Assembly (NCBI GenBank): GCA_045837725.1
Contig: JBEWZL010000246.1
Location: forward strand, 62,001-126,000
Reading direction: 5' to 3'
DNA: 64,000 bases
DNA from: Vermamoeba vermiformis
Lineage: Eukaryota
The position numbers and the translations under genes were made by a program. Position 1 is the stretch's first letter. Every line of letters starts with the position of its first letter. A model generated the notes under the pieces. It saw only the letters and a program-made list of their open reading frames with translations. It made no database searches and was not told where the DNA came from. Below, piece by piece: positions 26,163-43,683 of the stretch.

Positions 26163-28382
26163 TTAGCCTCGCAACGATGGATCCAACGTGCGGTACATTT
26201 GCAGGATTTTTTCGTTGTCGGAGAATGCAAGGCCATGGGGCAACAGTACCTCTTCGTTCGTGAACGATCTGTTTTTCCAGGTCAAATTTTGTCAAGATTA
26301 GAATTTATGGATCTTACTTGGCGACAACGAATAAATGTGTAATGGGATCTATGCATTCTTTGTGAGTTCTGTAGCCGTAGCTCCCGTAATAGCCACCAAC
26401 TCTTTTCGACGTAAGCACAATTCTCAGAATTCCATCGGCGATGTGACTCCATTTGCCGTACACTAATTAATCATATTGTTAGGAAACTTCCTGGAAATTT
26501 AGTATTAATACTTACTCTCATGCTCCGAGGTATGAAAAACTACTTCAGATTTGGGTTTCAATTCGAAAACGCTTCCGGTCCAATTTCTAAAAGTTAATGA
26601 CGAATTTTCGGGCAAGATTCTGTTCAAACCAAGTACATTAACAAGGGATACTAGGGAATTGATTTCAGAACCTTACGTTGGATTTTGCTTCAGCAAGTCG
26701 TAACCTGAAATTTGAGCTTGTAACGCTAACGTCGGACGATGTTTCAAATAATAGTCATTGTTAAGCAAGAGGTCCATCTCTTGGTCTGTTACAACGGAAC
26801 GCGCACCTTTTGCAAGTAAGAATTCGGTGTACCTGTAAAAACGAAGGATTTTAGTTCTAACAACAAAAAAAATAAATTATAATTTATTCTGAGAATTTTT
26901 CGACCGGGGCGGATACTATGGTAATACTCACCATATTGAAGGGTTGATAAAAGAATATCTTAAGATATTAAATTGGTAATTGTCCAAGTAAGAAGGCAGT
27001 GGCAGATTGATGTCTAAAGCAAGAAGTTAATATTCGCTCATCAAATAACGTTAAATTATGTCACCTGCGCCTAATTCTATCAAATAATCAATTAATGATA
27101 GTTTTTGCCGGATATTGTCCTTGTTGAACAACGCGATTGGCAAATAAGGCTTTTTTACGTCAAATATAGCTCCGCATTCGATCAATACAGAAAAAACCTC
27201 TCGCGTTTCTAAAAATGCTGCATATTCTAACGGCGATACCTAAATCATAGCTGTTAGATCCCTATTTAGCTCATTCTTAAATTAATAAACCAACAGAATC
27301 CGGATCTTACTTGTGCCTCGAATTCTGCAGCATGAGGAGGCAATCTGCGCAGAGTGGAGCTACTAATTGTCTTATTTAAATCGTATTGAAATTCTGGGAA
27401 CGATTTTTGGAGTCGGCTGAGTTGGCCAAACAGATCGGTAGCAGGAACGTCCTAATACGTCTTAATATATTGTTAAAAGTTGCGATTATTTCTTACTGAT
27501 ATTCCCCAGCATGCATTTGGCAACGATGATACGTAGAGAAGGCTAAATAGCAAACCTTCTTCAAATTTTTTGAATACGGACATTACAAATTTGACGGTTT
27601 TCTTGCTGGTGATGTTGTCTTTTAAGCAATACTCCGCCAATAATGATAGTAATGCAACTAAGTGCTCGAACTTTGCGGGAAGCTCGATCTCGGCCAAGCA
27701 GATCTATTTGTTTTATGGATGCGGAATTTAGTTCGCTGACTAAGCAGTTTAAACGAATAATTTAATACTTACGTCAACGATATATGTTAACACGTTATGA
27801 GCATCGTGTTCAAAGATCTTTGCGAGCAGATCTTGGCGTTCCACCGGCCCTCTTTGTCTTTGGAGCAGTCCATTCTTCGCGCGCATCGGTTTTATCCGAG
27901 CCAAAACAGTATTATAAGAAGGATTAATCAAAGCAAACGCCAGAAGCTCGGAATTATCTTCTTTGATGGCGCGCTAAAAGAAATTAGTATCTTTCCGAAT
28001 CTGATCTCAAAATAATGATCATATCTACGTACCAAAAATACATGTTCTAGATATACCGTTCGTAGTGGTATTTTTGCACGAGAATGTAACGTCTTACGAC
28101 TGCAGCAATCAAAAATAATTATTCAAAAAATCTATATCTTTGTTAGACAAATAGCTTAATTATAAATACAAACGTGAATGGTATTTAAAACGATCGTCAA
28201 ATTTAGTCTTACGAGGTATTTTCAAGAAACAGGTGTTGTAGCTTCAGATCGTGTGCTAGATTCCCATACATCGATCTGTTGGTTAGCAGCATCGCTGAAA
28301 AATCCAGCAAATCGAAATATTTAGCCACATAATAGAATATATCTTGTGGGAGGTCTGAAAGGTTGGTTTGGTGGTGCTCCAT
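26163..28382 (-). CDS. F-box protein with ankyrin-like repeats, many exons
   Basis: MEHHQTNLSDLPQDIFYYVAKY..LLTNRSMY; SPLEYAAF..VLIECGA, YLIELGA, FLLAKGA ankyrin-like ends; last exon ..DPSLRG*. Confidence 0.6.
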
Positions 28383-28544
28383 TTTGTGATCAAAAGGCGT
28401 AACTTTTCAATACCCTGTACGTCCTTTCGGATGGCTATTAATACAAAAAACGAAACACTGTTTGTGCCTCAAAACGGGACTAAAGAATATTGCTGGCTAA
28501 AAACGTTTTTTTGTGAGCTATGGATTTTTTATTTGGCAGCGAAA

Positions 28545-30645
28545 ATGGAGCACTACCAAATCAGCTTGCTATTTGAATTGCCGACCGAATTATTATTCGA
28601 GCAACTTAAATATTTATCCGTCGATAGCATACGTCGGTTGTATTCTACATCGAAGGCGTGTTCCCATCTCGTGAGCAGTTTTTTTGAATCTCAAAGAAGA
28701 ACCATTAAATATTGTTTAGTGGATGCGGATATTAATATAAAAGCTGATAAGAATCCTCACTATAGTCCACTTGAAGTTATTTCAGAGAGTAAGAAAAACA
28801 AATTAATTATTATTCTCGATTTCAGTTATAGCGCACAGCCTAAATTAATTTTACTTAAATTAGCTAATTTTTTTCAAATTTAACTGTCCTACAATGCGTA
28901 ATGTTAAGTTATTACATTAATAGTAAAAATTAAAAAAAAATTTGGTGCTGCCTGAAATCGGGAAAAAAATATCAAGTCCATTTAATATTAATATGTGACA
29001 TCAGATGCAATTGATCTTGGCTTAAATACGTTTGGAACACAGTTTGCACGATCAAAGAACCTGCGATGCAATCATCGAGCTTTAGCTGCGGTAAATTAAC
29101 TTCGTGATCTCTTGTAATTGGATCCGAATCAACGTTATTCTGACTTATTAATAGTAACTTTCCTTATATAGAGTGATATAGTCTTAATTCCGTTCAGTTG
29201 GTCGACGATCCTTTTTCATGGACCCAAGAAAATTGGTTCTTTGCTCTTCGATTCGTTGCTGAGTGTCTACGTCCTATTAGGCAGCCCTAATATCCATCTT
29301 ATAATTGATGGGACCATGAATAATGATATGCACAAAGAAGGTACGAATTTTTTGGCGACATCCAAGTCAGTTTTAGATCTCAAAATTTAATCGCTGATGA
29401 ATAACCTCTTTTTAACTTCTTATAATTTTTAGCGTATTTATCATGGGTGCCAGAATTATTAGCAGCATTTAGAGCAGTATTGGGCGATAAGGCGTCGCAT
29501 ACAAAAATTATTCCGATCAACAGTCACCAAAAATTCCAATTCAACATTACTGAAAAGGTAAATTTTACATCCTTATATGCATAATATTGGTATGGTAATA
29601 TTAATATCCAATCGTATAACTTATAAAGTTGAAAGTCAGACAAATCCGCAAAAAATTCTGATCCACATCATTTTTAGAGTTACGATTGGTACGATGGCCC
29701 AACTCTTCGCGAATTATTAGAAAATTCAACGAAATTTCGTGCTCCGTACGGTTTAAAAGACATTCTAAGCCCTGCTTCAATGATCCTAATGAATCCTTTT
29801 TTAACAAAACCGTTGGTTTTTAACTTACGTAAGTATACGTTCAATGTTATAAATATACTTATATTATATACAGGTGGTATTAGCGAGAATATAAGACCAT
29901 TACATGGTGCTCTTGGAATCGTTCCGCCGGGTGAATTTGGAGAGTATTTATACGGACCAAAACGACTTCCATATGCTCCCCCAAAAATCATATCAAATGA
30001 TAAAATATCAACTGCTAAGTATGGAAATTGCTATTGCTCATTGACAGTGATCAAAAATCAGTTGCGGCCAAGGTTTTTTAATGAGATCTACATCGCCGGA
30101 TATCGATTTATAATTAGAGTCAATTTAATAGCAAAAGTTAAGGACGGAGAACGTACTCTAGTACTTAGCGCTAATGCAGGTAATATAATAATAAGATATT
30201 ATGGAATTTTAGTGCCTAATTACAAATTTTTTTAGGCGATCAAGTCGAAGCCATCGTTACGTTCATGAAAATTCCCACGATTTGGTCGGTAGAATACCGC
30301 GATACAAATATTCTGCACGAATGTATTCCAAATGAAGGTAACTTAAACATTTTTTAGTCGATCTGCCGGATTTAACTAAGGTATTTTTTGACAGATCCGC
30401 TACACAAGAATATTTTTGGAAAATTCGTGGTTAGAGATCACTGGGAGGTCGTATTAGTAGGAACTATTAAGAAGCGATGCGAGTTAACTCAAACTGAGCG
30501 AGATAAATTCTTCGAGGAAGACACCGTTGAAAATCATGAAAAATTTGGCCGCAATTACCACCGCGACGAAAAATCAAACCGAAAATTGCAGAAAAAACTT
30601 GAGGCAAAAGCGAAAAGATCTACCAATCATCATAAGTTTGTTTAA
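28545..30645 (+). CDS. F-box + degenerate eEF1A-like fold, copy 1
   Basis: F-box LFELPTELLFEQLKYL..LYSTSK; SDIVLIP; KIIPIN..SYDWYDGPTLRELL; GDQVEAIV; FGKFVVRDHWEVVLVGTIKK (eEF1A: WYKGPTLLEAL; LGRFAVRDMRQTVAVGVIK). Confidence 0.72.
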
Positions 30646-31003
30646 TTTTGTCTTTTTATTGCCGTCAAGTTACGAAATAAAATGCATCGAGCGAGATTCC
30701 ATGCTTCATTATCTAACATTACTTTTGCATCCGCACATCGGCATAATTATATTAGGGCTACCGTTATGGCTGAAATTCCCCGAGATAAATAATCTCTGTG
30801 CCACAGTATCCGTTCTTTATGGAATTATTTATTAATTTTGCCGCAAGCAAAGAAGAGAAACAAAGTCAGGATGTGAACTATCTTATTATTTGGCTATTAG
30901 AATTTTCGTCGTATTTATGTTCCTAAAGATTGAAGAATGTGAATCATAGATAGAGAAAATATCAAGGGTTTGCTTGCGATATTTAGTGCTGTGTAACGCA
31001 ACA

Positions 31004-33859
31004 ATGAATAGAGTGGTCTATATATTTATTATCTACGGGCTATTGAGCCATTTGGGACACGCAGGTAATAATTTTAAACAATCGATCGAAAATTTTTACG
31101 TTTAAAAATTACCAATAATTAGTGCATTATGTTTAAATATTACATTTACTATTATACAATTAGTAATTAAAACGGCCAAGATTAATTTATTTTGATTTAA
31201 TTTAATAGGAAGTATCGAATGGCAACAAGTCACCCCAAAGCCCACAAACTTCAATTTTATTGCGTCCTATACATTCAATGGCACCGAAATATTCACTACA
31301 GGACACTCGGCAATCAGTAGCTCGGATTATACAGGTGGAATATTGGTTCGCAACGGTTACAAGTACGAATCTGACGTATCGTGTTTCATAAATTCAAATT
31401 TAACGCTTTAAATAGCTGGGAATATACAGCGTGCTATCCGTATCCAGTTATAACCATCGAGTCTCTCACCTACGTCCCGCATCTGAATAAGATTTTGGGT
31501 GTTGGCGGTGAAAGTGTCGTTACATTTGACCCAAAAAACATTAGCAGCGGTTGCGTGGTTAGCACTATTGATAAAGCGTATCGATTATACGGTATGAATT
31601 CATAACGATCTAAATAAGACTTTTTTTTCAAAAGTTCGTTTTGGATTTGATCCGAACACGATTTTACCCGTCAATTTTTTTAAGGTTATATTGCCCTTTA
31701 ATAAGAATAAGTACCTAATTATTTATTTTCCAGCGATTGCTTCCGGAAACGGCGTTATTCTCGCAGCCAATAGCGATTCGTCTTTATTGTTCAAGTCTAC
31801 TACCGGAACTTATTGGAAGTAAGAAAATCCGCTTATATTATAATAGAAGCATTATATCATAATATAATATATCTATTACTCCAATTTATATTAATGAGTG
31901 ACCTAATTGTTGTTGTAGACAAATTGACAAGTTGCCGTTCAAAGATTTCCGTGGCTTGGTATTCGACGCCACGTACAACAAGTTTATGCTCGGTTCAGTG
32001 AACGGCACATTTGCTTCAGTGAACGGTGAAAACTGGTGGAAACTCGATTCGAACAACAACAATCTGACGTTTACTCAGCTGAAAATTTATGCCAATAAGA
32101 TTATAGGAACTGCGTAAGTAATATTATTATCTTTATAGCTAAGAAATTGTTAGCGCCAAGCGCATCCGCCAAACGTATTTTAATTTTTTTTTTTAGGTAC
32201 TTAAATTCCGACAAGATTTACACTCGCCGAGTATACATTAGTGATAACTCAAATACGACTTTGCATTGGACGGATATTACGCCGATGAATATTAGTAGTT
32301 CCTCCTATTTCAACTTCCCTATGACAACCGAATCCGGATCGACTATTTTTACTTCCTTGCGAACAGATTCATGGTTTGGACCCGGCTTTAATACGTCAAT
32401 TTGGAGAACCGAGGACTTTGGCAATACTTGGCAGCTTGTTTTCAATCAAAACAACAGTTTTGTTCCTGGTACCATTCTGCGATCTGGGTAAGTCAATCAG
32501 ATCTTCGAAATTTCGTGCCGGAAAATATCGCAATATGGTTTATTAGCATGAAGGGAACCACACATTTTTTGTATAGGGTTTTATTAATTAATTTTTAGTT
32601 TTTAATCGAGTTTTTTTTTCCAGTACAAATTTCTAATTTTATCGTTTTACTCAGAAATGAATGGCTGATTGGCGGTCAAAACGGCCGATTAGTCTCAACA
32701 ACTGATTGGACGACATTTACGCCAATATTTCCAACCTACTCGCTGTCAACTGAAACTTTTAACCACGTCGCATTCATTAACGGTCAATTCATTCTTTCTG
32801 GTGCGTATTCAGTGTACCGAAGTGTCGATGGATATTCGTGGGATAAGCTCGTAGATTATGGATTTTATTCGATCACTTATTCATCGATCTCCAAGTTGTA
32901 CATTGGTATTCCTTCTACGGGTATTTATACAAGGTAAAGAATTTATTATAATTCCTAGAAATTAAAAAACCTTTATTTTAACTTTATAGTTATAGCTAAC
33001 TTGAAGTTTACCGGTCTAACAGCGCTATATTTTTTAGCCCGGATCTGAAAAACTGGACAAAAGCAACAATAGAGCAAGATATTCCCAATCGACTATACTT
33101 CACTCGTACACCTCTTCAGACCAAAGAAGGTTATCTTCTCGTCTCAGGTCAAATAGGCGATGTGTTCTATCCAACGGGACTTTGGTTGTCGCAAGACGGT
33201 GGTCAAACTTGGTCAAAACTCCCGCTGAAATTCAGCACGGCTACTTGTGGACAATTTTTAGCTATATTAGGCTATGCTAATAGCACAGTGTACTTATCGT
33301 GCCCAAGTAAGTTTTCGGTTTCGTGGATCCGGCGAAAAAAAAAAAACAAATTTTAAACATTTTCTATTACTGAATAGGCGGCTATTCTGTTACGATGTCA
33401 ACCACGAACATCACTTCAAATAGCTGGCGTCGAGAAAACGACAATTACTACATGTTCTTGACTGGTGGTGCCGGATCCGTTCAAGACACTCTTGTCGCTC
33501 TAACTGACGTAAGAACAGTGCCAACAGATATATATAGCTTTAATACTAAAATTTTATTATTATTGCAGATCTATAGTACAGGCAAACTCTATCAAATTAA
33601 GAATCACAATTGGATCACGACCCAGAAGTTTTACGATCCGAACTGGGACTATAACCTCCTGCCTCGCAACCAATTGTTCGTGAACGGCAAGTTTTGGACA
33701 TTATTCCGCTCAGGACTAGCGTACTCGAGCAGCGATGGCTTGACTTGGACCACAGAAACAGTGAACATGTACGGCATCCGTCACATGACATTCGGCAATG
33801 GTCGTTACGTTGCTGTTGGAGATCTAGGCACGATTTTAGTTGGAAAAGATAATAATTGA
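31004..33859 (+). CDS. Secreted BNR/Asp-box repeat beta-propeller protein
   Basis: Signal MNRVVYIFIIYGLLSHLGHA; repeats TEDFGNTW, SVDGYSW, SQDGGQTW, SSDGLTW; FGNGRYVAVGDLGTIL. Confidence 0.78.
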
Positions 33860-34001
33860 TGTTATAAATAAAAATTGGAGGAAAAGAATTGACTTTACTG
33901 TTTCACTGAACCGTTTGTTCACAGAAAGGCGCCGAATATTTTTTGACCGTTATAAACTACGTATTATTTAGTTTATCTGTAGTGTTAGCACAAAAGTAAT
34001 A

Positions 34002-35061
34002 ATGAACTTATTTGGCTTTTTGTTAATTTGTGCAGCGGATATTTCCGAAAAACTTAAGCTGGCCATGTTGGCGCTTAAGACTTGCACGATCCCTGCCAAC
34101 CGACTTAAAATATTGTTGCAGACGCAAGTAAGTAGTATTATATCATTACTACATGGATCGTTTTATTGGTGCCCATTGTAACAAGAAGGTACAATTGATT
34201 ACTTTGGTGCGGCTTTTATTGACACTGTTGCAGATTTGAATTCCAAATTTAATTTTTTTTAAAGTAACTTGACCATGTTTATATATACGATACTAATAAT
34301 GATTTTAGGGATTCAAAGAAAATTTTGGAATTTTTGGTGCAGTTCAAAGTCTTTACACGGCTGGATTTGGTTCAATTTGGACTGGCGGTTTATTTACTAT
34401 ATCGAAATACTATATGGGAGTATTAATTGCTGCGGTACAAGAGAAAGTAAGAAGGAACCGGATCCATAGTTATTACACGGATGGAGGTGTGCGGCCTTCG
34501 CAACAGTTTTGGCTCTCTTGGCAGTTCCAACTCGTGCTGTCAACATTATTAATGGCACCTATTGACACCTTAATGGCAAGATCGATGTCTTCGTTGCCGA
34601 GTTCTGAATTTTCAAGTTGGAATCTGATTCGCAAGTCTTTTGGATCCGCTGAACAGATTCTATCGCTCTTTAATGGTGTGCCAATTACTCTATTAATGGT
34701 ATATATATATCGCAGCATCCGAAATTCTTGGATCCCGCAGCTCCAACGAAGCGCTAAAGTCACACCCGAAGAGGCTCGTTTATTCGATTATTTGTTAGCC
34801 ATAATTATAAGCGTAATTATATATCCATTGGACACCATCAGACAAAATATGATGCTATCAACGACTATGGATATGAATCCTATGACAGTAACTGCTGATC
34901 TGTTCCTGAAAGGTGGATTTGGTGCATTTTTCGCGGGAATGGGCGTTAAGATTTTCAGCTCATTGCTGTTCTCTTTCATTGAAGGTGGTGCGAGATACTC
35001 TAATGACAGTGGCCGCAAATCTATGGTTGAATACATGAGCTACAATACTTATGGCATTTAA
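34002..35061 (+). CDS. Divergent mitochondrial carrier (SLC25) protein; start uncertain
   Basis: Three carrier repeats with PANRLK, PIDTLM, PLDTIR, each followed by hydrophobic-G segments (SIWTG, SLFNG, AFFAG). Confidence 0.75.
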
Positions 35062-35271
35062 AGGTTGTACCCTGATCCTGAACTAAGTACCGGAAAGAGT
35101 TATGTACTAATATAAGTAAAACATAATATTATCTAGTATTGCCTTAGTATTATAAGACAATCCAAGCTTTTCTCTTCTACAACATAAGACCCCGAAATAT
35201 TTTAACCGAGCGACTAAATTAAAACCGCTCCAATAAACTACACTATCTATCTTTTATACATATTATGTACA

Positions 35272-37210
35272 CTAAGCTGCCATATTTTTGTCTTTGTTTC
35301 CTGGTCTCGTTTCGTTGACTTTTGTTTGACCAAGATCGTTGTCTTTGCTCTCGTTCAGGACGATTACAATATAGATTAAGCAACAAATGCCGATGCCTGC
35401 GAATATCCAAAACGTATTTGAGACTCCAATAGCGTCAACGAGCGATTGAAAAGCCAAAGACAAGGCAATGTTGAGCAGCCATTGAAGCATGTTAATGAAG
35501 CTATTAGCGCCGGCACGCACTTCGTTCGGAAACACTTCATTGACGAGCACCCAGAAATTCGTTCTAAATAATGAACAATCAATAAGATTTAGAAATGGTA
35601 TCGAAGCGCATCCGGATTCAGATCTTACCCAGGACCAGTTTCGAAGCCAAATAAGAACATGCCTATGCCTACAATAGCCACAATACCGTTTGTGAATGGT
35701 TCGGTCGCAAAAAATGAACAAGCAACGATAATCAAGCTGCCGCACATGATGGAGAGGCCTGCAATCATGAGAGGTTTGCGACCAGCACGATCAATCAACA
35801 GCAGTGGGAAGAAGGTCACGAAGAAGTTCCATGCACCTACTACCTATAAACAAAATGTATAAGAAACACCGTAATAAGTAAGAGTAGTATTTTCGTGCGA
35901 ACAGCGGATCTTGCAACGAGAATTTAATTTGGTTTGAGAACGTAAAATCACAATTTGAGTACTAAAATATCGTTGTGTATAATATTGGCTTACTATAGTC
36001 AAAATATCTTCAATATTGAAGCCAGCTCCGGTCAGAATTTTAGGCGCGAAGTAGATGATCGCGTTAACACCTATGATATTAGCGTTAGAATTGCTTGATC
36101 GATATAAACTATGGGATAAAATAAGTACCTGTAAGTTGCAGGGTAATAGCAAGCATAAATCCAAGACCGACAAATTGACGGAACTTTGGTTGAAAGAAGA
36201 TCGCCCAAGATCCGGAATCTTGTTTCGTTTCGTTCAATGAGGCCTCTTCCTTGGCTTTAATCCAAAATGCAGACTCAGGAATGATGCACGATAGTATAAG
36301 AGAGGCGATTCCAAAGACGGCACCAAGACCAAATCCAGTTCTCCAATTCCAGTACCAATCTAAGTCCATTATAAGTCTTTTTATTTGTTAAAATAGGCTG
36401 TAATTGCATACCTCCTGCCATATTTCCTTGATTCAAGCCATATTGAATGACATAGCCAAGGAAGATCCCGAGTGTAACGGCGAGTTGAAATAAAATGCCA
36501 AGTCGACCACGATACTCGAGCTTTGCCATCTCAGATACATACATAGGACATGCTACTGACGCTAGGCCAACAGCTATACGTGTTCAGGTTAGCTATGTTA
36601 TTCCGTTGAACAAATTGACAGATCGGATTTGAAATTGCAACGCGAAGAAATTTTAATTACCGTATCCAAGTATTGCTCTAGCGACGCATAGGACAGCATA
36701 GTGTGGTGAGAACATGGTAAAGATAGACGCACCAATGGTTATTGCGCTCATAATAATCAACGTCTTTTTGCGTCCGATCTTGTCGCAGATAATGCCTAAA
36801 CAAAGATCAGTAAATTCCACTGCCAAATGTATACCAACGATGGAGTATTTAAAAAGAAAGATAATTCCAGGTTTTACCTCCAGTAGCGGATCCAATCGCT
36901 GCACCAACAAGAATACTCGCGGTTAATACTCCCTGGAGAATCGAAGACAGCGAAAATTCTTCTGCTATCGATCCAAGTGCAAGGGCAATGACACCTTATA
37001 TACATATAAATATTGTTAATTTTGTTACAATCTTTTCAAGGCTTGCGATGGATTCGTACCTGTCGTGTAGCCAAAAATCAGGCCGCCGAACGAGTTAACC
37101 AATATAAGTTGCGGTAGATTACTTTTAATAGGCCTAAAAAGTATATCATATTAATACGAGGGGTACTACGACAAAAACAAATCCGCATCTGATCATGGAT
37201 CTACTCACAT
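35272..37210 (-). CDS. MFS sugar porter
   Basis: GGLIFGY, DKIGRK, YVSEMA..RGRLG, WR..PES, LQLTGVNAIIYFAP, DRAGRK, EVFP..R; start codon split by intron 1. Confidence 0.92.
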
Positions 37211-38011
37211 TTTGTTTGATTATCGAAGCGATGCGACTGTTCAGTTATCAAGGTAATTAATTAATGAGAAGGTGAAACGGAGAGCTTTTTACGTGTTTTT
37301 GGATGAAATTCAGGCCCAAACGTTCGTGCACTGAACGTGCTTCTCAACTTTCCTTTTTAGGCAGTTGCAATCTAACAAGGGCCGTTCTGGATCCACCGTC
37401 ACATATTAATTGGTCCCAATATCACTTAGTTTTCTAAAATATATATACGCGTTTGAAACCGAGGAATGCTGCGAGTCAGCTTGATGATTTCGCCGTGCTA
37501 GAAATTTCGTTTCATAAATTTGGAGCTTGACTGAACGATCGCAAAGTGGTTCTAGAAGAAATATCGGAAAGTAATATGCCTGCATTTCTGCAGTTATCCA
37601 AATTTAATTTAATTTGATAGGTGAGTAAATAAAATAAATACTGCCTTAATCTCGTCAGTATCGTATTCCAAAAGCAAAATAATTTACTCACGAAATTATT
37701 AATAATAAATATAAATAATTAACCGAACAGCAGTTTTTAGTCAGATCAAATCTGTATTTAAAAATTTATAAAACCGCTGCAGTGTAGCGACCGACTCTAA
37801 CCATTAAATAATATTTTTAATAATCCTTATACTAACGATATGTATATAGTTACCAGTGCGTGTTTTGCCAGCCGCGGTAGGAGATCTTTGGTAGGTTCTC
37901 GTGCTAGTAGAAATGAAAAGTCATGGATTGGCAAGTATCTACAGTCTAGTTGCCATCGTGTGCATGTTAAGTTTTTTTGGCAATTTAGTTTTCAGACCTC
38001 GCAGGTGCGTC

Positions 38012-40488
38012 TTAATTCTTCCTTCCTTTAAAGCGTTGAATACTCTTCTTAGCGTGCTCATTAGTCGTTACGTGATCTAAGAACAATTCAAGTTGCTTTT
38101 GCTCCGTTGGAAGATTGAATAGGGACGATGCTTGATCCACAACCGTTGCGAACTGATTTAGATCATCTACAGAATGTAGACCGAAATTAATAACGATATC
38201 ATTTTATAAGTTGAAAATTGAGTAATTACCTTTGTAGATATCGAGATTAAATGTTGGAGCGGTAACACTGATGACGCGATCCACTCGTCCAACACCAACA
38301 ATCGAGGTCTTTTCCATCATCATCACTTTGCCTCGATAATTCTTCTCGAATACACTTGGCTTGTAGGTCTCAATTTCGTAGTGAATCAGTGGAAGAAAGA
38401 TTGCTGTCGCTTTTTTGAAGGTCTGTTTCGGCGGTCGAACATAGTTGACTCCACTCTCCGCTTGCAACTTGGCATGAACTTCTTTTCCTTTTTTAACTTG
38501 AACCTCGTGTTCTTTGAGCTGTTTAAAATATTCGCTGGTACGAGGCACGTTGGCTTCTGGTTTTGAAGGCAAAGTAATGTCCAATTTGAGTTTTCTTTCG
38601 GCTCTATCGTGATTTTTTCCGTCAGTCGGGAAGATCCACCACAACAAGCACGGAATACGAGCTGCACCGTAGAATACGTTGTAGATTTGATGTTGTGTGA
38701 ATCGATCTGATTTCATGACGGCAATTTGGGCTCGAAAAGCCATTGTGCAGTTGACCGCCGGAGTCTCTTTATAGTTCACCATGTAGCTGTATCTATTATC
38801 CAAATCAGATGTACTAATGCCTCTTACGTTGAGACCAACAATATCGCCTACCAATCACAAAATCAGATTTCGTTCAAGAGCGCAAAAATTGAAATTTCAA
38901 GTTGGTACCTGGCGTTGCATCTTCTTTTATCTCGTAATATGATTCAATGCTTCTAACTTGAGTAGCAAGTTTTTTCGGATGAATTACGACTGTACTATCA
39001 GGCTTAATAACACCACCTATTGGTTTTAACGTTAGTCAACGGATCTTACTTTGCAGTCAGATTCTGGCTTACTCATGACACGGCCTTCGAGCACTGTACC
39101 AATACCACGGATTTTATGCTTGAATAACATTTGGAACCGTACTGGCGCGTCACAGAGCTTTTTGAATTCTGATTCGTCGAAATTGGTTCGCAGCTGATCT
39201 GCGAGGAGTAATTCGTTCAGTGAAGGACCGCTCCACCACTTGAATGTAGGCACAGATACACCCGGAACGATGTTATTTCCGGTTAATATATCTATTGGCA
39301 CGATTTTGTAGCACAAGCCAACAGTACGATTGAGCAACTTGGCCATCTTAGTCTTGGCTTCGTTGTACACTAAAGCCTCACATTAGTAATCTTTGCAATT
39401 CTCGCGTAACGGACAACGACATACCCTTTTGCAAGCCAAGAGGTTGATACGAAGGATAGTTGTGCAAGTCAATGGCAACAATGACATTGCGGGCACTCAT
39501 CATGAAACAACAACCGAAGATCGTGTCTTTGATGTACTCCGTGTATTCATCGATCTCTTGGGGATCTACAATTAACAAGCACAAGTCCGCCTAAACATAA
39601 AACATGCGTTAAAGAAGATATTGGATCAGCAGAAGTACATCGACCTATACATCTACGCTTATTCGTAAAGCTTAATAGAGGTCCGTAAATTGAATCCGAT
39701 CTGAAAATAATAATATTTCTTGTAATTGTGGGTTAAGGCGGATCAGCCCTACGGATGCTTTTAGACTTACGGTCACAGCGTCGACAAACAACTTTCTTCT
39801 ATATCGGACTTCATTTGGGGATTCAATAAGTATTATTTTTGATGAAGTACGAGGCCCACGCCCAACGATTTTTGTTTGTTTACAAGTGTTACCATCAACT
39901 CTTCGCCAAGTACGAGTCTTTTTGGCAGGAGCTTCATAGGTTATGTTGTACGATAGTAAATGTGACCCTAATATTTTAGTCTTTAACTGCGTGGAAAAAA
40001 GAAACGTACGAGAAACTTCGTTGACCTCATCTGGAAGTTAGAAAGGATAATAATTAGTGCCGTGCCAGTTGAAAAATAACTAATTTTAAATATTTAAAAT
40101 AACTAATTTAAATATTTTAAAACTTACCACATATTGAAGGAGGAGATAAGACCAAAACCTGCATGATGTTGCCACATAGTCGGATCTTCTTTCGATGCTC
40201 AAGAAGGTACTGAGCAAGTGGCCGAATTCGTTGACTAACGCGTACTAAATTTAATAACTGATACCTGCCCAAGTTGTCCATGATTTCGAGCAAGATCTAA
40301 ACGAACGACAAAAAATTAAAATAAAATAAAATCAAAATATTTGTTTAATATTCTGAATATTAGCAACCGTGCTTAAGCCTAAAACGAGCACAGGATATTT
40401 TTGATTCAAAATTAAAGAGCTTCTTAATCAAAAATAAAATACTTACCTCGTTGGGCAATTCATTAAACAACGACGAGTTCTTCTCCAT
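38012..40488 (-). CDS. F-box + degenerate eEF1A-like fold, copy 2 (intact)
   Basis: F-box LFNELPNEILLEIMDNL..LVRVSQRIR; ADLCLLIV; IVPIDILTGNNI..WWSGPSL; domain II KIRGIGTVLEGRVMSGVIKP..VRSIESYYE..ATPGDIVGLNVRGIS; domain III FRAQIAV..IVGVGRV. Confidence 0.85.
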
Positions 40489-40586
40489 TTAATCTTTACT
40501 TCGCTTAATAATAATATTTATCTATTTCTGCACCAAGTTGTGGTCATAACGGCCAAATACAAAATTCAACAAAATTTCGCAGGTAG

Positions 40587-42932
40587 TTAATTAATTTTGA
40601 CCCGCAGAATACTCTTCTTAGCGTGCTCATTAGTCGTTACATGATCTAAGAACAATTCAAGTTGCTTTTGCTCCGTTGGAAGATTGAATAGGGACGAGGC
40701 TTGATCCACAACCGTTGTGTATTGCTGCTGGTAATCTGCGATGAATTATACACGATTAGATTACCGAAAATAAAATGTAGCATATAATAACGATGCATAC
40801 CAGCACTGGTGGGAAGATTAATTGTTGGAGCGGAAACACTGATGACGCGATCCACTCGTCCAACACCAACAATCGAGGTCTTTTCCATCATCATCACTTT
40901 GCCTCGATAGTTCTTCTCGAATGCACTTGGCTTGTAGGTCTCAATTTCGTAGTGAATAAGTGGAAGAAAGATTGCTGTCGCTTTTTTGAAGGTCTGTTTC
41001 GGTGGTCGAAGTTGCCCCTTCGCTTTGAGTTTTCTTTCGGCTCTATCATGATTTTTTCCATCACTCGGAAAGATCCACCACAACAAACACTTAATGTGTG
41101 CTCTACCATAGAATACGTGGTAGATTTGATGTTGCGTGAATCGATCTGACTTCATAACCGCGATCTGCGCTCGAAAAGCCAAAGTACAGTTCACATCTTG
41201 AGTCTCGTTGCTTTTAACCACGTAAGTGAATCTCCGCTGGAGATCTCGCATGGCAACATTACTCACGTGGAACGCGACAATATCACCTGTGCACAAAAAA
41301 TTAGACCTAGATTACATCCAGTACTGAGTTAACTACCTGGCTTTGCCTCGCTTTTAACACTGTAATATGATTCCATGTTATTCCGCACATCAGAAACAAT
41401 ACCACCAGGATGGATGCAAACTTGATCAAAAGGTTTAAGCGTACCACCTATAGGCCGTTGTTAGTTATAAACTGCAGCAAAAAAAAGTCACGTGGTGTGC
41501 AATAAAGTTAATAATATGATAAAAATTAACCAACCAATCAGAATGTTGTAAATTGATGTACAACGACTGATAATCAACGTTTGGCTGTAAGGAAGTCATT
41601 TACTTACTCATAACGCGCCCTTCTAACACGGTGCCAACGCGAAATATATCGTGATGAATGATCATCTGGAATCTAAATGGCACCTCACAGAGCTCTTTAT
41701 ACGCGGTTTCATCGAAATTTGTTCGCAGTTGATCTGCTACCAACAACTTTTGCACGGAAGGACCGTTGAACCACGTGAACTTGTGAGCGATGCCCGAGGC
41801 AATGTTGCCACCTGTACGCACATCTATTGGCACGATTGCGTAGCACATGCCAACGGTACGATTGAGCAACTTGACCATCTTAGTCTTGGCTTCGTTGTAC
41901 ACTAAAGGCCCTCACATTAGTAATCTTTGTAGTTCTCGTGTCTCGTACAACAACATACTCTTTTGCAAGCCAAGAGGTTGATACGAAGGATATTTGTGCA
42001 AGTCAATGGCAACAATGACATTGCGGGCACTCATCATGAAACAACAACCAAAGATCGTGTCTTTGATGTACTCCGTGTAGTCATCGATCTCTTGGGGGTC
42101 TACATTAACAAGCACAAATCCGCCTAAACATAAAATATACGTTAAAAGAGAGAAATCAGCAGAATCACGTCGGCCTATACATTAATGCCATTAGTAAAGT
42201 TTAGTAGAGGCGCCGCAACATCGGATCTGAACCACATCTCGTATATGACTTACAGCAATAGCGTTAATAAATAATATTCGACGCAAGTGCTCCTGCACAG
42301 GTGCTTCGATCATAGTAATCTTCTTGTTATTGTTCAAGGTCTTGACGGTCGTCCTAGCTCGCGCTTTGACTCGATTCCAAGAACGAACAAACTTCTTAGT
42401 AGGAGCTTCATCTATCAGGGTATTTATCAAAAGCGACGCTCCTATTGTAATCAATTAGTAATGCACAGAATTGAAAAATTTTAAGCAAAAACGTACGAGA
42501 TGCGTCTTCGTTGTTCTCTAGTGCCAGATAATCTATTATGGAGAATATAAACTAACAGTATAATGCTAAAAATAATAGCTTACCAAGCATAGAAGGTGGA
42601 GATAAGACCAGTACGCTTAAGTTCTCACCGCATAGTCGGATCTTCTTCCGATTTTCAAGTACGTATTGAGCAATACCATGAATGCGTTTATTAACGCGCA
42701 TCAAATATATTAACGGAAATCTATCCAAAAAATCTAGGATGGTAATCAAGATCTGAAAACAATTTTAGAATATTTTTGCTAGTGAAATCAAATATGCAAA
42801 AATATATATTTAAAATATTGACAATAATATAATGCACAATTCTAATTATTCTTATCATTAGCCTGCGCACAAGCCAAATCTGACCTCGGTAGGCAATTCA
42901 GCGAACCATGAATACTTTTCAGTGTCTGCCAT
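40587..42932 (-). pseudogene. F-box + degenerate eEF1A-like fold, copy 3 (1-nt frameshift: pseudogene or sequencing error)
   Basis: F-box WFAELPTEILITILDFL..LMRVNKRI; same exons as copy 2; TTA ATG TAG versus TTA ATT GTA in copy 2 at ~42104. Confidence 0.7.
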
Positions 42933-43073
42933 TGAGAGTACTGTTATTAAAATGCACCAATTAATAATTACAGCTCGTTGCGCCCGAGGAGTTCACTTGG
43001 TGGTGTTTAAAACAAAATGTTGCGTTCTATTCTCACTGTCTTTTCAATTGCATAAGCACTACTCCCACTGACA

Positions 43074-43683
43074 ATGGAAAAACACAAACAAAGCTTAAAA
43101 TCAAAAAAGCGAAAGTTTGATCGCGTTGATCGTCACGAGGGGCCGCCCTCCGCAGAGAGACGACAGGAGAAGGGAGGACACAGCGAAGACGAAAGAAGGA
43201 AGGAGAAGGAGGAAGGGGCGGGGAATAGAGGGGGAAGCCCAGGGCCGAAGGAGGGGAGGGACGAGGGGGAGACGAGGAGAGGGGGGGGGCGGGCGGGGGG
43301 GGCGGGGGGGATTAGGTCAATACTTACACTCGCACTTTATCGATCCACATGACGATCGAGCGTACAAAACTATTGGAGGCAAGCAACACTCGAGATCTAT
43401 AGCTGTTATCTACTACTTGACACCACATTGGACAGAGGAAGAAGGTATATTTTTCATTGAATCCACGATCCGACGCAAGTTTAATTCCTGATTTTCTTAA
43501 TTAGGAGGTGCCTTAATTGACATCGATGGTGACTCCAAGAAGTATGTTCCGGAGTTTAACTCGCTAATTGCATTCACTGTTCCTCGCTGGCATCAAGTCG
43601 AGGTTATGCAAACAGATCGCCCTCGGTACTCGATCTTCGGTTGGTTTTTGGAACCAGGACAATTGTATGATCTAGCTACATAA
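43074..43683 (+). CDS. 2OG-Fe(II) oxygenase (prolyl-hydroxylase-like); middle part looks corrupted
   Basis: FIDPHDD, IAVIYYLT..W..EGGAL, PEFNSLIAF, WHQV, RYSIFGWF; the 5' ORF and catalytic exons are out of frame across the G-rich stretch. Confidence 0.75.
43130..43310 (+). repeat. Purine/G-rich low-complexity tract
   Basis: Almost no T; ends in G runs (GGGGGGGGGCGGGCGGGGGGGGCGGGGGGG). Confidence 0.9.

What the first reader, a model, noticed from the sequence alone, without database searches (positions are those of the whole stretch)
28545..42932. Family of F-box / eEF1A-like pseudo-GTPase fusion proteins (3 genes)
Seen: 28545-30645(+), 38012-40488(-) and 40587-42932(-) each start with an F-box followed by an eEF1A-like body. 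Examples are ADxxLLI, IVPI..W[YWF].GP[TS], GTVLEGRV.SG..KP and PGDIV..V in copies 2/3, and FGKFVVRD..VLVGTIKK in copy 1. Established: F-boxes bind Skp1 in SCF ligases and the C-terminal part selects substrates; eEF1A binds aa-tRNA, ribosomes and actin. Inference: these are SCF adaptors that use a translation-factor fold for recognition. They could target eEF1A partners or stalled ribosomes, or act as decoys that capture pathogen proteins attacking eEF1A (Legionella Lgt glucosyltransferases modify eEF1A). I do not know this architecture as a described family.
Basis: partly seen in the sequence, partly recalled or inferred. Interest (0 to 1): 0.92.

Follow-up and report, generated by a model that had tools for sequence, protein, structure and literature searches.

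The report
F-box proteins built on dead eEF1A
Three intron-bearing genes of an amoeba-like eukaryote join an F-box (the handle that plugs a protein into a ubiquitin ligase) to a copy of translation factor eEF1A that has lost its GTP-binding motifs; this domain combination is rare, undescribed in the papers searched, and probably marks unknown targets for degradation.

Summary
Hand-spliced models with GT-AG introns give a 604-aa protein for copy 2 (38012-40488, -) and a 477-aa protein for copy 1 (28545-30645, +). Copy 3 (40587-42932, -) is open except for one missing base near 42104.

Copies 2 and 3 are about 50% identical to a 618-aa Vermamoeba vermiformis transcript protein. That protein passes Pfam's F-box thresholds and matches solved EF-1alpha structures (E 1.7e-25). 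Its AlphaFold model superposes on aEF1A/eEF1A (TM 0.74).

The GTPase motifs G1, G3, G4 and G5 are all replaced, so the body is a pseudo-GTPase. Copy 1 is a very divergent relative, supported only by weak profile matches and two shared intron positions.

The family is narrow: 5 clusters in 5.8 billion proteins, and 37 mostly fragmentary representatives of the 150 listed from 1.84 billion. No viral counterpart was found. A Balamuthia protein has an F-box fused to a much less degraded eEF1A.

The most likely role is SCF substrate receptor, with the eEF1A-derived body as the recognition module. The target is unknown. The decoy and ribosome ideas are untested. Six literature searches found no description. 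Verdict: a new variant of a known kind.

The parts
38012..40488 (-). Copy 2: intact F-box / eEF1A-like pseudo-GTPase gene, 604 aa. Exons 40488-40447, 40296-40128, 40030-39771, 39590-39425, 39369-39073, 39016-38909, 38847-38230, 38166-38012.
   Evidence: Spliced model has no stop and 7 GT-AG introns. It is 51% identical over about 610 aa to P0002, P0123 and P0131. Family HMM hits on every exon.
40128..40488 (-). Copy 2 F-box coding part: exon 1 ends at LPNE, exon 2 starts at ILLEIMDNL..., with a 150-nt intron between them.
   Evidence: Exon 2 alone: Pfam F-box E 0.0091, 16.3 bits, below the 20.5 cut-off. It is 60% identical to the F-box of P0002 (tblastn E 7e-14), and P0002 passes Pfam's cut-offs.
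38438..38583 (-). Lys/Glu-rich insert of about 48 aa inside domain III of copy 2. It is absent from copy 3 and P0004. Coordinates are approximate.
   Evidence: Alignments. The corresponding part of the P0002 model is a long helix (460-491) flanked by low-confidence segments.
40587..42932 (-). Copy 3: same architecture, frameshifted as assembled. Exons 42932-42885, 42752-42584, 42532-42497, 42441-42254, then the frameshift, then 42123-41959, 41901-41608, 41447-41337, 41286-40801, 40735-40587.
   Evidence: Upstream part gives 147 aa in phase 0. The downstream part is open only in frame +2. It is 60% identical to copy 2 over 602 columns. dN/dS against copy 2 is 0.33.
42101..42107 (-). Site of the single missing base in copy 3 (TTAA-TGTA against TTAATTGTA in copy 2).
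   Evidence: Nucleotide alignment.
28545..30645 (+). Copy 1: very divergent member, 477 aa, intact. Exons 28545-28788, 29005-29090, 29172-29340, 29433-29557, 29678-29828, 29874-30179, 30236-30337, 30395-30645. The F-box lies in exon 1.
   Evidence: Spliced model has no stop and 7 GT-AG introns. Pfam F-box-like E 0.0041, 17.3 bits, below cut-off. Family HMM 18.8 bits. hhalign results. Introns shared with copies 2 and 3 at alignment column 220 phase 0 and column 287/288 phase 1. No database relative of 325-2000 aa found with its largest ORF.
39591..39644 (-). Decoy copy of the exon-4 start inside intron 3 of copy 2 (reads VDVLLLI... then a stop), preceded by an AG.
   Evidence: Read. Conserved in copy 3 at 42124-42174 (alignment). 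Its function was not tested.

Best explanation
The three genes belong to a small amoebozoan family. In it, an N-terminal F-box is fused directly onto the first beta-strand of a duplicated translation elongation factor eEF1A. That eEF1A copy has since lost nucleotide binding. It keeps the three-domain eEF1A fold, carries a variable helical insert in domain III, and has a conserved helical tail of about 60 residues.

Shown here: the architecture, the fold, the loss of the G motifs, purifying selection, and one-piece transcripts in relatives.

Inferred: the F-box docks the protein on Skp1 of a cullin-RING (SCF) ubiquitin ligase, and the dead eEF1A body is the substrate-recognition module. It would present a bound protein for ubiquitylation.

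The target is unknown. The acidic residue of the aminoacyl pocket (eEF1A 'QD') is not kept, and GTP cannot be bound, so classical aminoacyl-tRNA delivery is unlikely. A protein partner of the domain II/III surface is the more likely ligand.
For: - **F-box:** P0002 scores 25.6 bits on PF12937 (cut-off 24.3) and 24.1 bits on PF00646 (cut-off 20.5). The model shows helices at residues 15-23, 27-36 and 38-50.
- **eEF1A body by sequence:** PDB phmmer gives aEF1A 3wy9 at E 1.7e-25, and 13 a/eEF1A sequences at E <= 5e-13 before any other factor. NCBIfam EF-1-alpha models are the best hits.
- **eEF1A body by fold:** AF2 pLDDT is 72.7 and pTM 0.69. Foldseek's top hit is 3wxm_E at E 6.9e-24 and TM 0.74, followed by ribosome-bound eEF1A.
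- **Pseudo-GTPase:** in the alignment, GHVDSGKS, DAPGH, NKxD and SGW correspond in the family to SLPSxxD, xPPNx, A[IV]D[LM] and I[DN][IV]. In copy 1, G1 falls in a gap and G3 is unalignable. Pfam GTP_EFTU was not reported for any of P0001-P0005.
- **Selection:** 150+ invariant columns among 5 proteins about 55% identical. dN/dS for copy 2 against copy 3 is 0.33.
- **One transcript:** P0002 is a complete Trinity ORF. Uninterrupted ORFs of 611-626 aa sit on contigs of 2.0-2.3 kb, although the window's genes have 7-8 introns.
- **Second amoebozoan:** a Balamuthia protein combines an F-box with a recognisable GTP_EFTU domain plus D2 and D3.
Against: - No binding to Skp1 or to any substrate was tested.
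- The window's own F-box exons are each below Pfam's cut-offs.
- Copy 3 is frameshifted as assembled.
- Copy 1 is only weakly tied to the family.
- Some F-box proteins act outside SCF complexes (recalled knowledge).
- The AF2 alignment included eEF1A rows, so the fold match partly restates the sequence homology.
Confidence: 0.6

Rival explanations
1. Immune decoy or guard. The dead eEF1A body mimics eEF1A so that pathogen effectors or giant-virus factors aimed at eEF1A bind it instead, and the SCF ligase then ubiquitylates them.
For: - The family is confined to free-living amoebae in what I could see: Vermamoeba transcripts and a Balamuthia protein.
- There are several paralogues about 50% identical. 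The N-terminal G-half and domain II diverge fastest (37-52% identity between copies 2 and 3), while the rest is 77-90% identical and shows signs of gene conversion.
- That pattern is typical of conflict-driven F-box families (recalled knowledge).
Against: - Nothing links it to infection. There are no expression data.
- dN/dS is below 1 in every segment where it could be computed (0.08-0.39).
- The surfaces that known effectors modify were not examined.
- No viral relatives were found.
Confidence: 0.12
2. Ribosome- or translation-factor-directed ligase. The eEF1A-shaped body docks where eEF1A-family proteins dock (the ribosomal factor site, eEF1B, or tRNA-shaped proteins such as eRF1 or Pelota) and brings SCF to them.
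For: - The best structural matches are the compact GTP-type conformations: aEF1A-GTP with Pelota, and eEF1A on the ribosome (TM 0.67-0.74). GDP forms score 0.36-0.42.
- Domains II and III keep eEF1A landmarks such as GIGTVxxGRV and GxxxxxxxxxxVGVGxV.
Against: - AlphaFold's choice of conformation is not evidence.
- The switch regions and the catalytic His are gone.
- The domain III insert and the C-terminal tail have no eEF1A counterpart.
- No partner was tested.
Confidence: 0.15
3. Non-SCF pseudoenzyme scaffold, or decaying eEF1A duplicates. The N-terminal helices are not a working F-box, and the proteins have another role or none.
For: - The window exons are sub-threshold for the F-box.
- Copy 3 is frameshifted.
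- P0149, a second Vermamoeba transcript, has no F-box in its 400-aa ORF.
Against: - The F-box passes Pfam in P0002, and P0198 scores 29.4 bits.
- LPNEIL and 30 further N-terminal columns are invariant in 5 of 5 full-length proteins.
- dN/dS is 0.33, and 0.29 for the F-box segment.
- Full-length transcripts exist.
Confidence: 0.1

Closest known systems
eEF1A / archaeal EF-1alpha (translational GTPase; PDB 3wy9, 3wxm, 1f60, 8g60)
   Same: Three-domain fold. Recognisable sequence homology from the G3 strand to domain III (E 1.7e-25; TM 0.74). Pfam GTP_EFTU_D2 is matched.
   Different: G1, G3, G4 and G5 are replaced. Pfam GTP_EFTU gives no hit. The score is 95-100 bits against NCBIfam cut-offs of 502-540. 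It lacks the 12-residue eukaryote-type insert after the W(Y/F)xG motif. It adds an N-terminal F-box, a domain III insert and a C-terminal tail.
Balamuthia mandrillaris KAL6049269.1 (P0198), annotated 'hypothetical protein'
   Same: An F-box (PF00646 E 7e-7) sits directly in front of the first strand of an eEF1A-type body. It is colinear with the family profile over positions 7-376. A tree that holds it together with the family is not rejected and is 16.6 lnL units better than the free quick tree (p-AU 0.67).
   Different: It still has a recognisable GTP_EFTU domain (E 1.9e-24), a P-loop GPYSTGKT, and Pfam-detectable domain III. G3 is NVPGH and G4 is NQME. It scores higher on the eEF1A HMM than on the family HMM (255 against 80 bits). 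The free tree leaves it unresolved.
Hbs1 / eRF3 / Ski7: eEF1A paralogues with N-terminal adaptor extensions
   Same: The design principle: an eEF1A-like body reused as a binding module behind an N-terminal adaptor region. This comparison is recalled knowledge. Hbs1 and eRF3 structures appear among the fold matches.
   Different: The sequence is nearer a/eEF1A than Hbs1 or eRF3. For P0002 there is no Hbs1 or eRF3 hit at E <= 1. For P0198 the order is eEF1A 7e-64, Hbs1L 5e-50, eRF3 5e-35. Those factors keep GTPase motifs (recalled) and have no F-box.
F-box proteins (FBXW, FBXL, FBXO classes) as SCF substrate receptors
   Same: An N-terminal F-box followed by a separate recognition domain.
   Different: The recognition domain here is an eEF1A-derived pseudo-GTPase. 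I found no paper describing that combination. InterPro could not be queried.

Membership tests
F-box protein (SCF substrate receptor) | F-box motif recognised by Pfam PF00646 or PF12937 at or above the gathering score | tested here: inconclusive
   The window exons are below cut-off: copy 2 scores 16.3 bits, copy 3 scores 14.1-15.5, and copy 1 scores 17.3. In copies 2 and 3 the motif is split by an intron, and spliced proteins could not be sent to the tool. The homologue P0002 passes both models (25.6 and 24.1 bits). P0198 scores 29.4 bits. P0003 and P0004 are below cut-off.
F-box protein (SCF substrate receptor) | Binds Skp1 and assembles with a cullin | not testable with these tools
F-box protein (SCF substrate receptor) | Separate C-terminal domain able to recognise a substrate | tested here: met
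   An eEF1A-like body of about 400-540 residues follows the F-box. Binding of a substrate was not tested.
eEF1A / EF-1alpha translational GTPase | G1 (GxxxxGK[ST]), G3 (DxxG), G4 (NKxD) and G5 motifs | tested here: not met
   In the alignment all four are replaced in P0002, P0131, P0123, P0004, P0138 and copies 2 and 3. In copy 1, G4 and G5 are replaced, G1 falls in a gap and G3 is unalignable.
eEF1A / EF-1alpha translational GTPase | Pfam GTP_EFTU (PF00009) and the NCBIfam EF-1_alpha equivalog at cut-off | tested here: not met
   PF00009 was not reported for 0 of 5 family proteins at E <= 0.1-1. TIGR00483 scores 95 and 88 bits against a cut-off of 540.
eEF1A / EF-1alpha translational GTPase | Domain II beta-barrel (PF03144) | tested here: met
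   P0002 scores 35.7, P0001 31.9 and P0005 35.7 bits, all at or above 30.3. P0003 (27.0) and P0004 (28.6) are just below. The window exon alone gives only E 0.12.
eEF1A / EF-1alpha translational GTPase | Overall three-domain fold including domain III | tested here: met
   Foldseek gives E 6.9e-24, TM (target) 0.74 and 448-546 aligned columns to a/eEF1A chains. The Pfam domain III models gave no hit.
Hbs1 / eRF3 subfamily | Closer in sequence to Hbs1 or eRF3 than to eEF1A | tested here: not met
   a/eEF1A sequences rank first in both. For P0002 no Hbs1 or eRF3 chain reached E <= 1.

The most novel reading that the evidence does not exclude
An amoebozoan invention in which a nucleotide-dead mimic of eEF1A is wired to a ubiquitin ligase. 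It would act either as a bait that captures and destroys pathogen or giant-virus factors aimed at the host's most abundant translation factor, or as a device that brings SCF to the ribosomal factor-binding site. The Balamuthia protein would preserve an early stage of the fusion, with the P-loop still present.
Probability: 0.2. Interest if true: 0.85.

Novelty: new variant of a known kind. Interest (0 to 1): 0.62.

Why it matters
F-box proteins are defined by what their second domain recognises. A translation-factor fold in that position is not among the classes I know (recalled). It was also not found in six full-text searches.

If the body still engages partners of eEF1A-family proteins, the family would link the ubiquitin system to the translation machinery in a new way. 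This would be in amoebae that host Legionella-like bacteria and giant viruses.

It is also a clean natural example of a GTPase turned pseudo-GTPase. A less degraded relative in Balamuthia may show the path. The family is small and easy to test: tagging and pull-down in Vermamoeba would name the target.

Tried and rejected
- **Whole genome:** none is held for the window, so genome-wide copy number could not be counted.
- **RNA and DNA reads:** There is therefore no read evidence on splicing, expression or the copy 3 frameshift.
- **Exon-wise Pfam:** scans of the window gave nothing significant for the body.
- **Copy 1's largest ORF:**
  - It found no relative among proteins of 325-2000 aa.
  - Against PDB it gave only chance-level GFP hits.
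  - hhalign of its putative domain II found nothing (probability <= 0.3%).
  - Its domain III end is only weakly like eEF1A (E 1.2e-3).
- **Viral origin:** two scans of viral contigs found no relative. BFVD fold matches are generic giant-virus translational GTPases at <= 16% identity.
- **Earlier scan notes:** none for this genome or sequence.
- **ESM Atlas:** only generic translational-GTPase clusters at 0.77-0.78, below the level that counts.
- **Rescue of copy 3 by splicing:** no canonical acceptor restores the frame. One weak upstream donor (GTCGAA) would, at the cost of about 10 conserved residues. I rate that unlikely.
- **Phylogeny:** the free quick tree did not join Balamuthia to the family. 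Long branches make either placement unsafe.
- **Complex prediction:** not used, for lack of a Skp1 sequence.
Full report
**What the window is.** The DNA is eukaryotic. It has 34-44% G+C. Its genes are broken by short GT-AG introns, and nothing in the region reads as one long ORF. No whole genome is held.

The neighbouring genes are ordinary: a mitochondrial carrier, a sugar transporter, a 2OG-Fe(II) oxygenase and a DUF4139 protein.

**Gene models.** I spliced the three loci by hand from the sequence and checked them in scripts.

- Copy 2 (38012-40488, minus strand) has 8 exons and 7 introns of 55-180 nt, all GT...AG. It gives 604 residues without a stop.
- Copy 1 (28545-30645, plus strand) has 8 exons and 7 GT-AG introns of 45-216 nt. 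It gives 477 residues.
- Copy 3 (40587-42932, minus strand) has 9 exons. Its first four give 147 residues in frame. The remaining five are open only in another frame.

The nucleotide alignment with copy 2 shows one base missing in copy 3 near 42104. No canonical acceptor repairs the frame. Everything else in copy 3 is open, and dN/dS against copy 2 is 0.33. The shift is therefore either very recent or an assembly error.

I could not check this against reads.

**Relatives.** The 216-residue exon of copy 2 found two longer proteins. One is P0002, a complete Trinity ORF of 618 residues from the EukProt transcriptome of Vermamoeba vermiformis.

Searching with P0002 over 5.8 billion proteins gave five family clusters at E <= 1e-122: P0002, P0003, P0001, P0004 and P0005. 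There is then a gap to ordinary eEF1A at E 1e-20 and worse.

Full-length members of those clusters are P0131, P0123, P0138 and P0004. All begin with LPNEIL....

Several are uninterrupted ORFs of 611-626 residues on contigs of only 2.0-2.3 kb. Given 7-8 introns in the window's genes, I take these contigs to be transcript-derived. That is an inference.

A profile of five full-length proteins was run against 1.84 billion representatives.

- It gave 3857 hits at E <= 1e-3 and 20 at E <= 1e-30.
- Of the 150 listed, 37 score higher on the family HMM than on an eEF1A HMM.
- Most of those are fragments of 66-400 residues. I read them as exon-sized ORFs or partial transcripts.
- Two fragments are 98% and 95% identical to copy 2 exons.

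Copies 2 and 3 are 60% identical to each other and 44-51% identical to the database members. A family HMM found no further copy in the 64-kb window.

**F-box.** P0002 passes Pfam's gathering scores for F-box-like (25.6 against 24.3) and F-box (24.1 against 20.5). P0003 and P0004 are just below.

In the window the motif is split by an intron after LPxE in copies 2 and 3. The exons alone are therefore sub-threshold, and so is copy 1's single-exon F-box.

LPNEIL and some 30 further N-terminal positions are invariant in 5 of 5 full-length proteins.

**eEF1A-like body.**

- P0002 matches solved EF-1alpha sequences from the G3 strand into domain III. The best is 3wy9 at E 1.7e-25, residues 133-398 against 83-332.
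- Thirteen a/eEF1A sequences come before any other factor. No Hbs1 or eRF3 chain reaches E <= 1.
- Pfam finds only domain II.
- NCBIfam's EF-1alpha models are the best hits but lie far below their cut-offs.
- An AlphaFold2 model of P0002, built on 83 rows that include eEF1A sequences, has pLDDT 72.7 and pTM 0.69.
- Foldseek places the model on aEF1A-GTP/Pelota (3wxm_E, E 6.9e-24, TM 0.74) and on ribosome-bound eEF1A.
- Because the alignment held eEF1A rows, the fold match is not independent of the sequence homology.

**Pseudo-GTPase.** In a joint alignment the eEF1A motifs are replaced as follows.

| Motif | eEF1A | Family, including copies 2 and 3 | Copy 1 |
|---|---|---|---|
| G1 | GHVDSGKS | SLPSxxD | falls in a gap |
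| G3 | DAPGH | RPPNK / ESPNE / EAPVQ | no confident counterpart |
| G4 | NKxD | AIDL / AVDL | IIDG |
| G5 | SGW | IDI / INI | INS |

The strand that follows the F-box (RVLVLS) occupies the place of the first G-domain strand.

The family also shows these differences from eEF1A:

- It lacks the 12-residue eukaryote-type insert after W(Y/F)xG.
- It has a conserved DQLRTNFD linker.
- It has a variable Lys/Glu-rich helical insert in domain III. The insert is present in copy 2 and absent in copy 3 and P0004.
- It has a conserved C-terminal helical tail.

The 'QD' of eEF1A ahead of the GIGTV strand lines the aminoacyl pocket (recalled knowledge). It is not conserved in the family.

**Copy 1.** Evidence is thin but consistent.

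- Its exons alone are not significant.
- The spliced protein scores 18.8 bits on the family HMM, in two colinear pieces: the F-box and KIIPIN...YDWYDGPTLRELL.
- hhalign of residues 111-227 gives 83% probability and E 8.5e-6 against the family, and 66% and E 5.4e-5 against eEF1A positions 110-225.
- The putative domain II gives nothing. The C-terminal strand pair gives E 1.2e-3 against eEF1A.
- Two introns coincide with those of copies 2 and 3 in position and phase: before (A/S)DxxLxI in phase 0, and 55-56 codons later in phase 1.
- No database relative was found among longer proteins.

I treat copy 1 as a probable, highly diverged member with a further reduced G domain.

**Balamuthia.** The profile search also found P0198, an NCBI 'hypothetical protein' of Balamuthia mandrillaris.

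It has an F-box (E 7e-7), a recognisable GTP_EFTU domain (E 1.9e-24), and domains II and III. Its P-loop GPYSTGKT is intact, but G3 reads NVPGH and G4 reads NQME. It is nearest a/eEF1A (7e-64), then Hbs1L and eRF3.

In a quick tree the family is a clade with 100% support on a long stem, and Balamuthia is unresolved. A tree that holds them together is 16.6 log-likelihood units better than the free search, and is not rejected (p-AU 0.67).

One origin of the fusion in Amoebozoa is therefore possible. Long branches make this unsafe.

**Evolution of the tandem pair.** dS between copies 2 and 3 is 0.2-0.4 in the G-core and the 3' end, but above 1 in the F-box and domain II. dN/dS is 0.08-0.39 wherever it could be computed. 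I read this as purifying selection with partial gene conversion.

**Function.** Shown: architecture, fold, loss of GTPase motifs, constraint, and fused transcripts in relatives.

Inferred from the general role of F-boxes: the proteins are SCF substrate receptors whose recognition module is a dead eEF1A.

The decoy and ribosome-directed variants are open. No call bears on them beyond the fast divergence of some surfaces and AlphaFold's choice of the compact conformation.

There is no viral counterpart. No earlier scan notes exist.

**Novelty.** Six full-text searches returned no paper describing the combination. For all of them I saw search listings and abstract openings only.

| Search terms |
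|---|
| F-box / elongation factor 1-alpha / Vermamoeba |
| F-box / GTP_EFTU_D2 |
| Vermamoeba / genome / F-box |
| Balamuthia / F-box / elongation factor |
| F-box / eEF1A-like |
| pseudoGTPase / eEF1A |

InterPro could not be queried, and supplements were closed. The sequences themselves are public under automatic names.

I rate the finding a new variant of a known kind.

Noticed in passing
window 27051-28406 (-): A further gene with an F-box-like start (MEHHQTNLSDLPQDIFYYV...) lies head to head with copy 1. A downstream ORF in it has a faint ankyrin hit. Pfam support is weak: F-box E 0.19 and Ank_3 E 0.048. It shows no eEF1A likeness in the family HMM scan.
   Followed up: partly
window 39591-39644 (-) and 42124-42174 (-): The intron before the 'ADLCLLIV' exon holds a second, decoy copy of the exon start behind its own AG (VDVLLLI... 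in copy 2, ADVILLI... in copy 3), running into a stop. It is conserved between copies 2 and 3. It may be an alternative, unproductive 3' splice site.
   Followed up: no
window 38012-42932 (-): Synonymous divergence between the tandem copies is uneven. dS is 0.2-0.4 in the G-core and the 3' end, against more than 1 in the F-box and domain II. This suggests partial gene conversion. P0004 and P0138 likewise share a near-identical C-terminal third.
   Followed up: partly
window 40010-39987 (-) versus 42496-42442 (-): Copy 3 has a 55-nt intron (GTACGT...AATAG) where copy 2 reads straight through in frame. Only about 23 nt of similar sequence remain in copy 2, which points to intron loss or gain between the tandem copies.
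   Followed up: no
window 31196-33859 (+): A multi-exon gene carries repeated S-x-D-x-G-x-T-W-like motifs (SQDGGQTW, SSSDGLTW, TEDFGNTW), reminiscent of BNR/Asp-box repeats (recalled). Four of its ORFs gave no Pfam hit at E <= 0.001.
   Followed up: partly
window 43033-43352, both strands: A low-complexity stretch reads as Pro/Ser-rich on one strand and Arg/Gly/Glu-rich on the other. It lies just upstream of a 2OG-Fe(II) oxygenase exon.
   Followed up: no
P0149 (database protein, not in the window): A second Vermamoeba vermiformis transcript protein of 400 aa belongs to the family clade. It starts at the 'ADxxLLIV' position, without the F-box or the N-terminal G-half. It may be a truncated paralogue or a partial transcript.
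   Followed up: no
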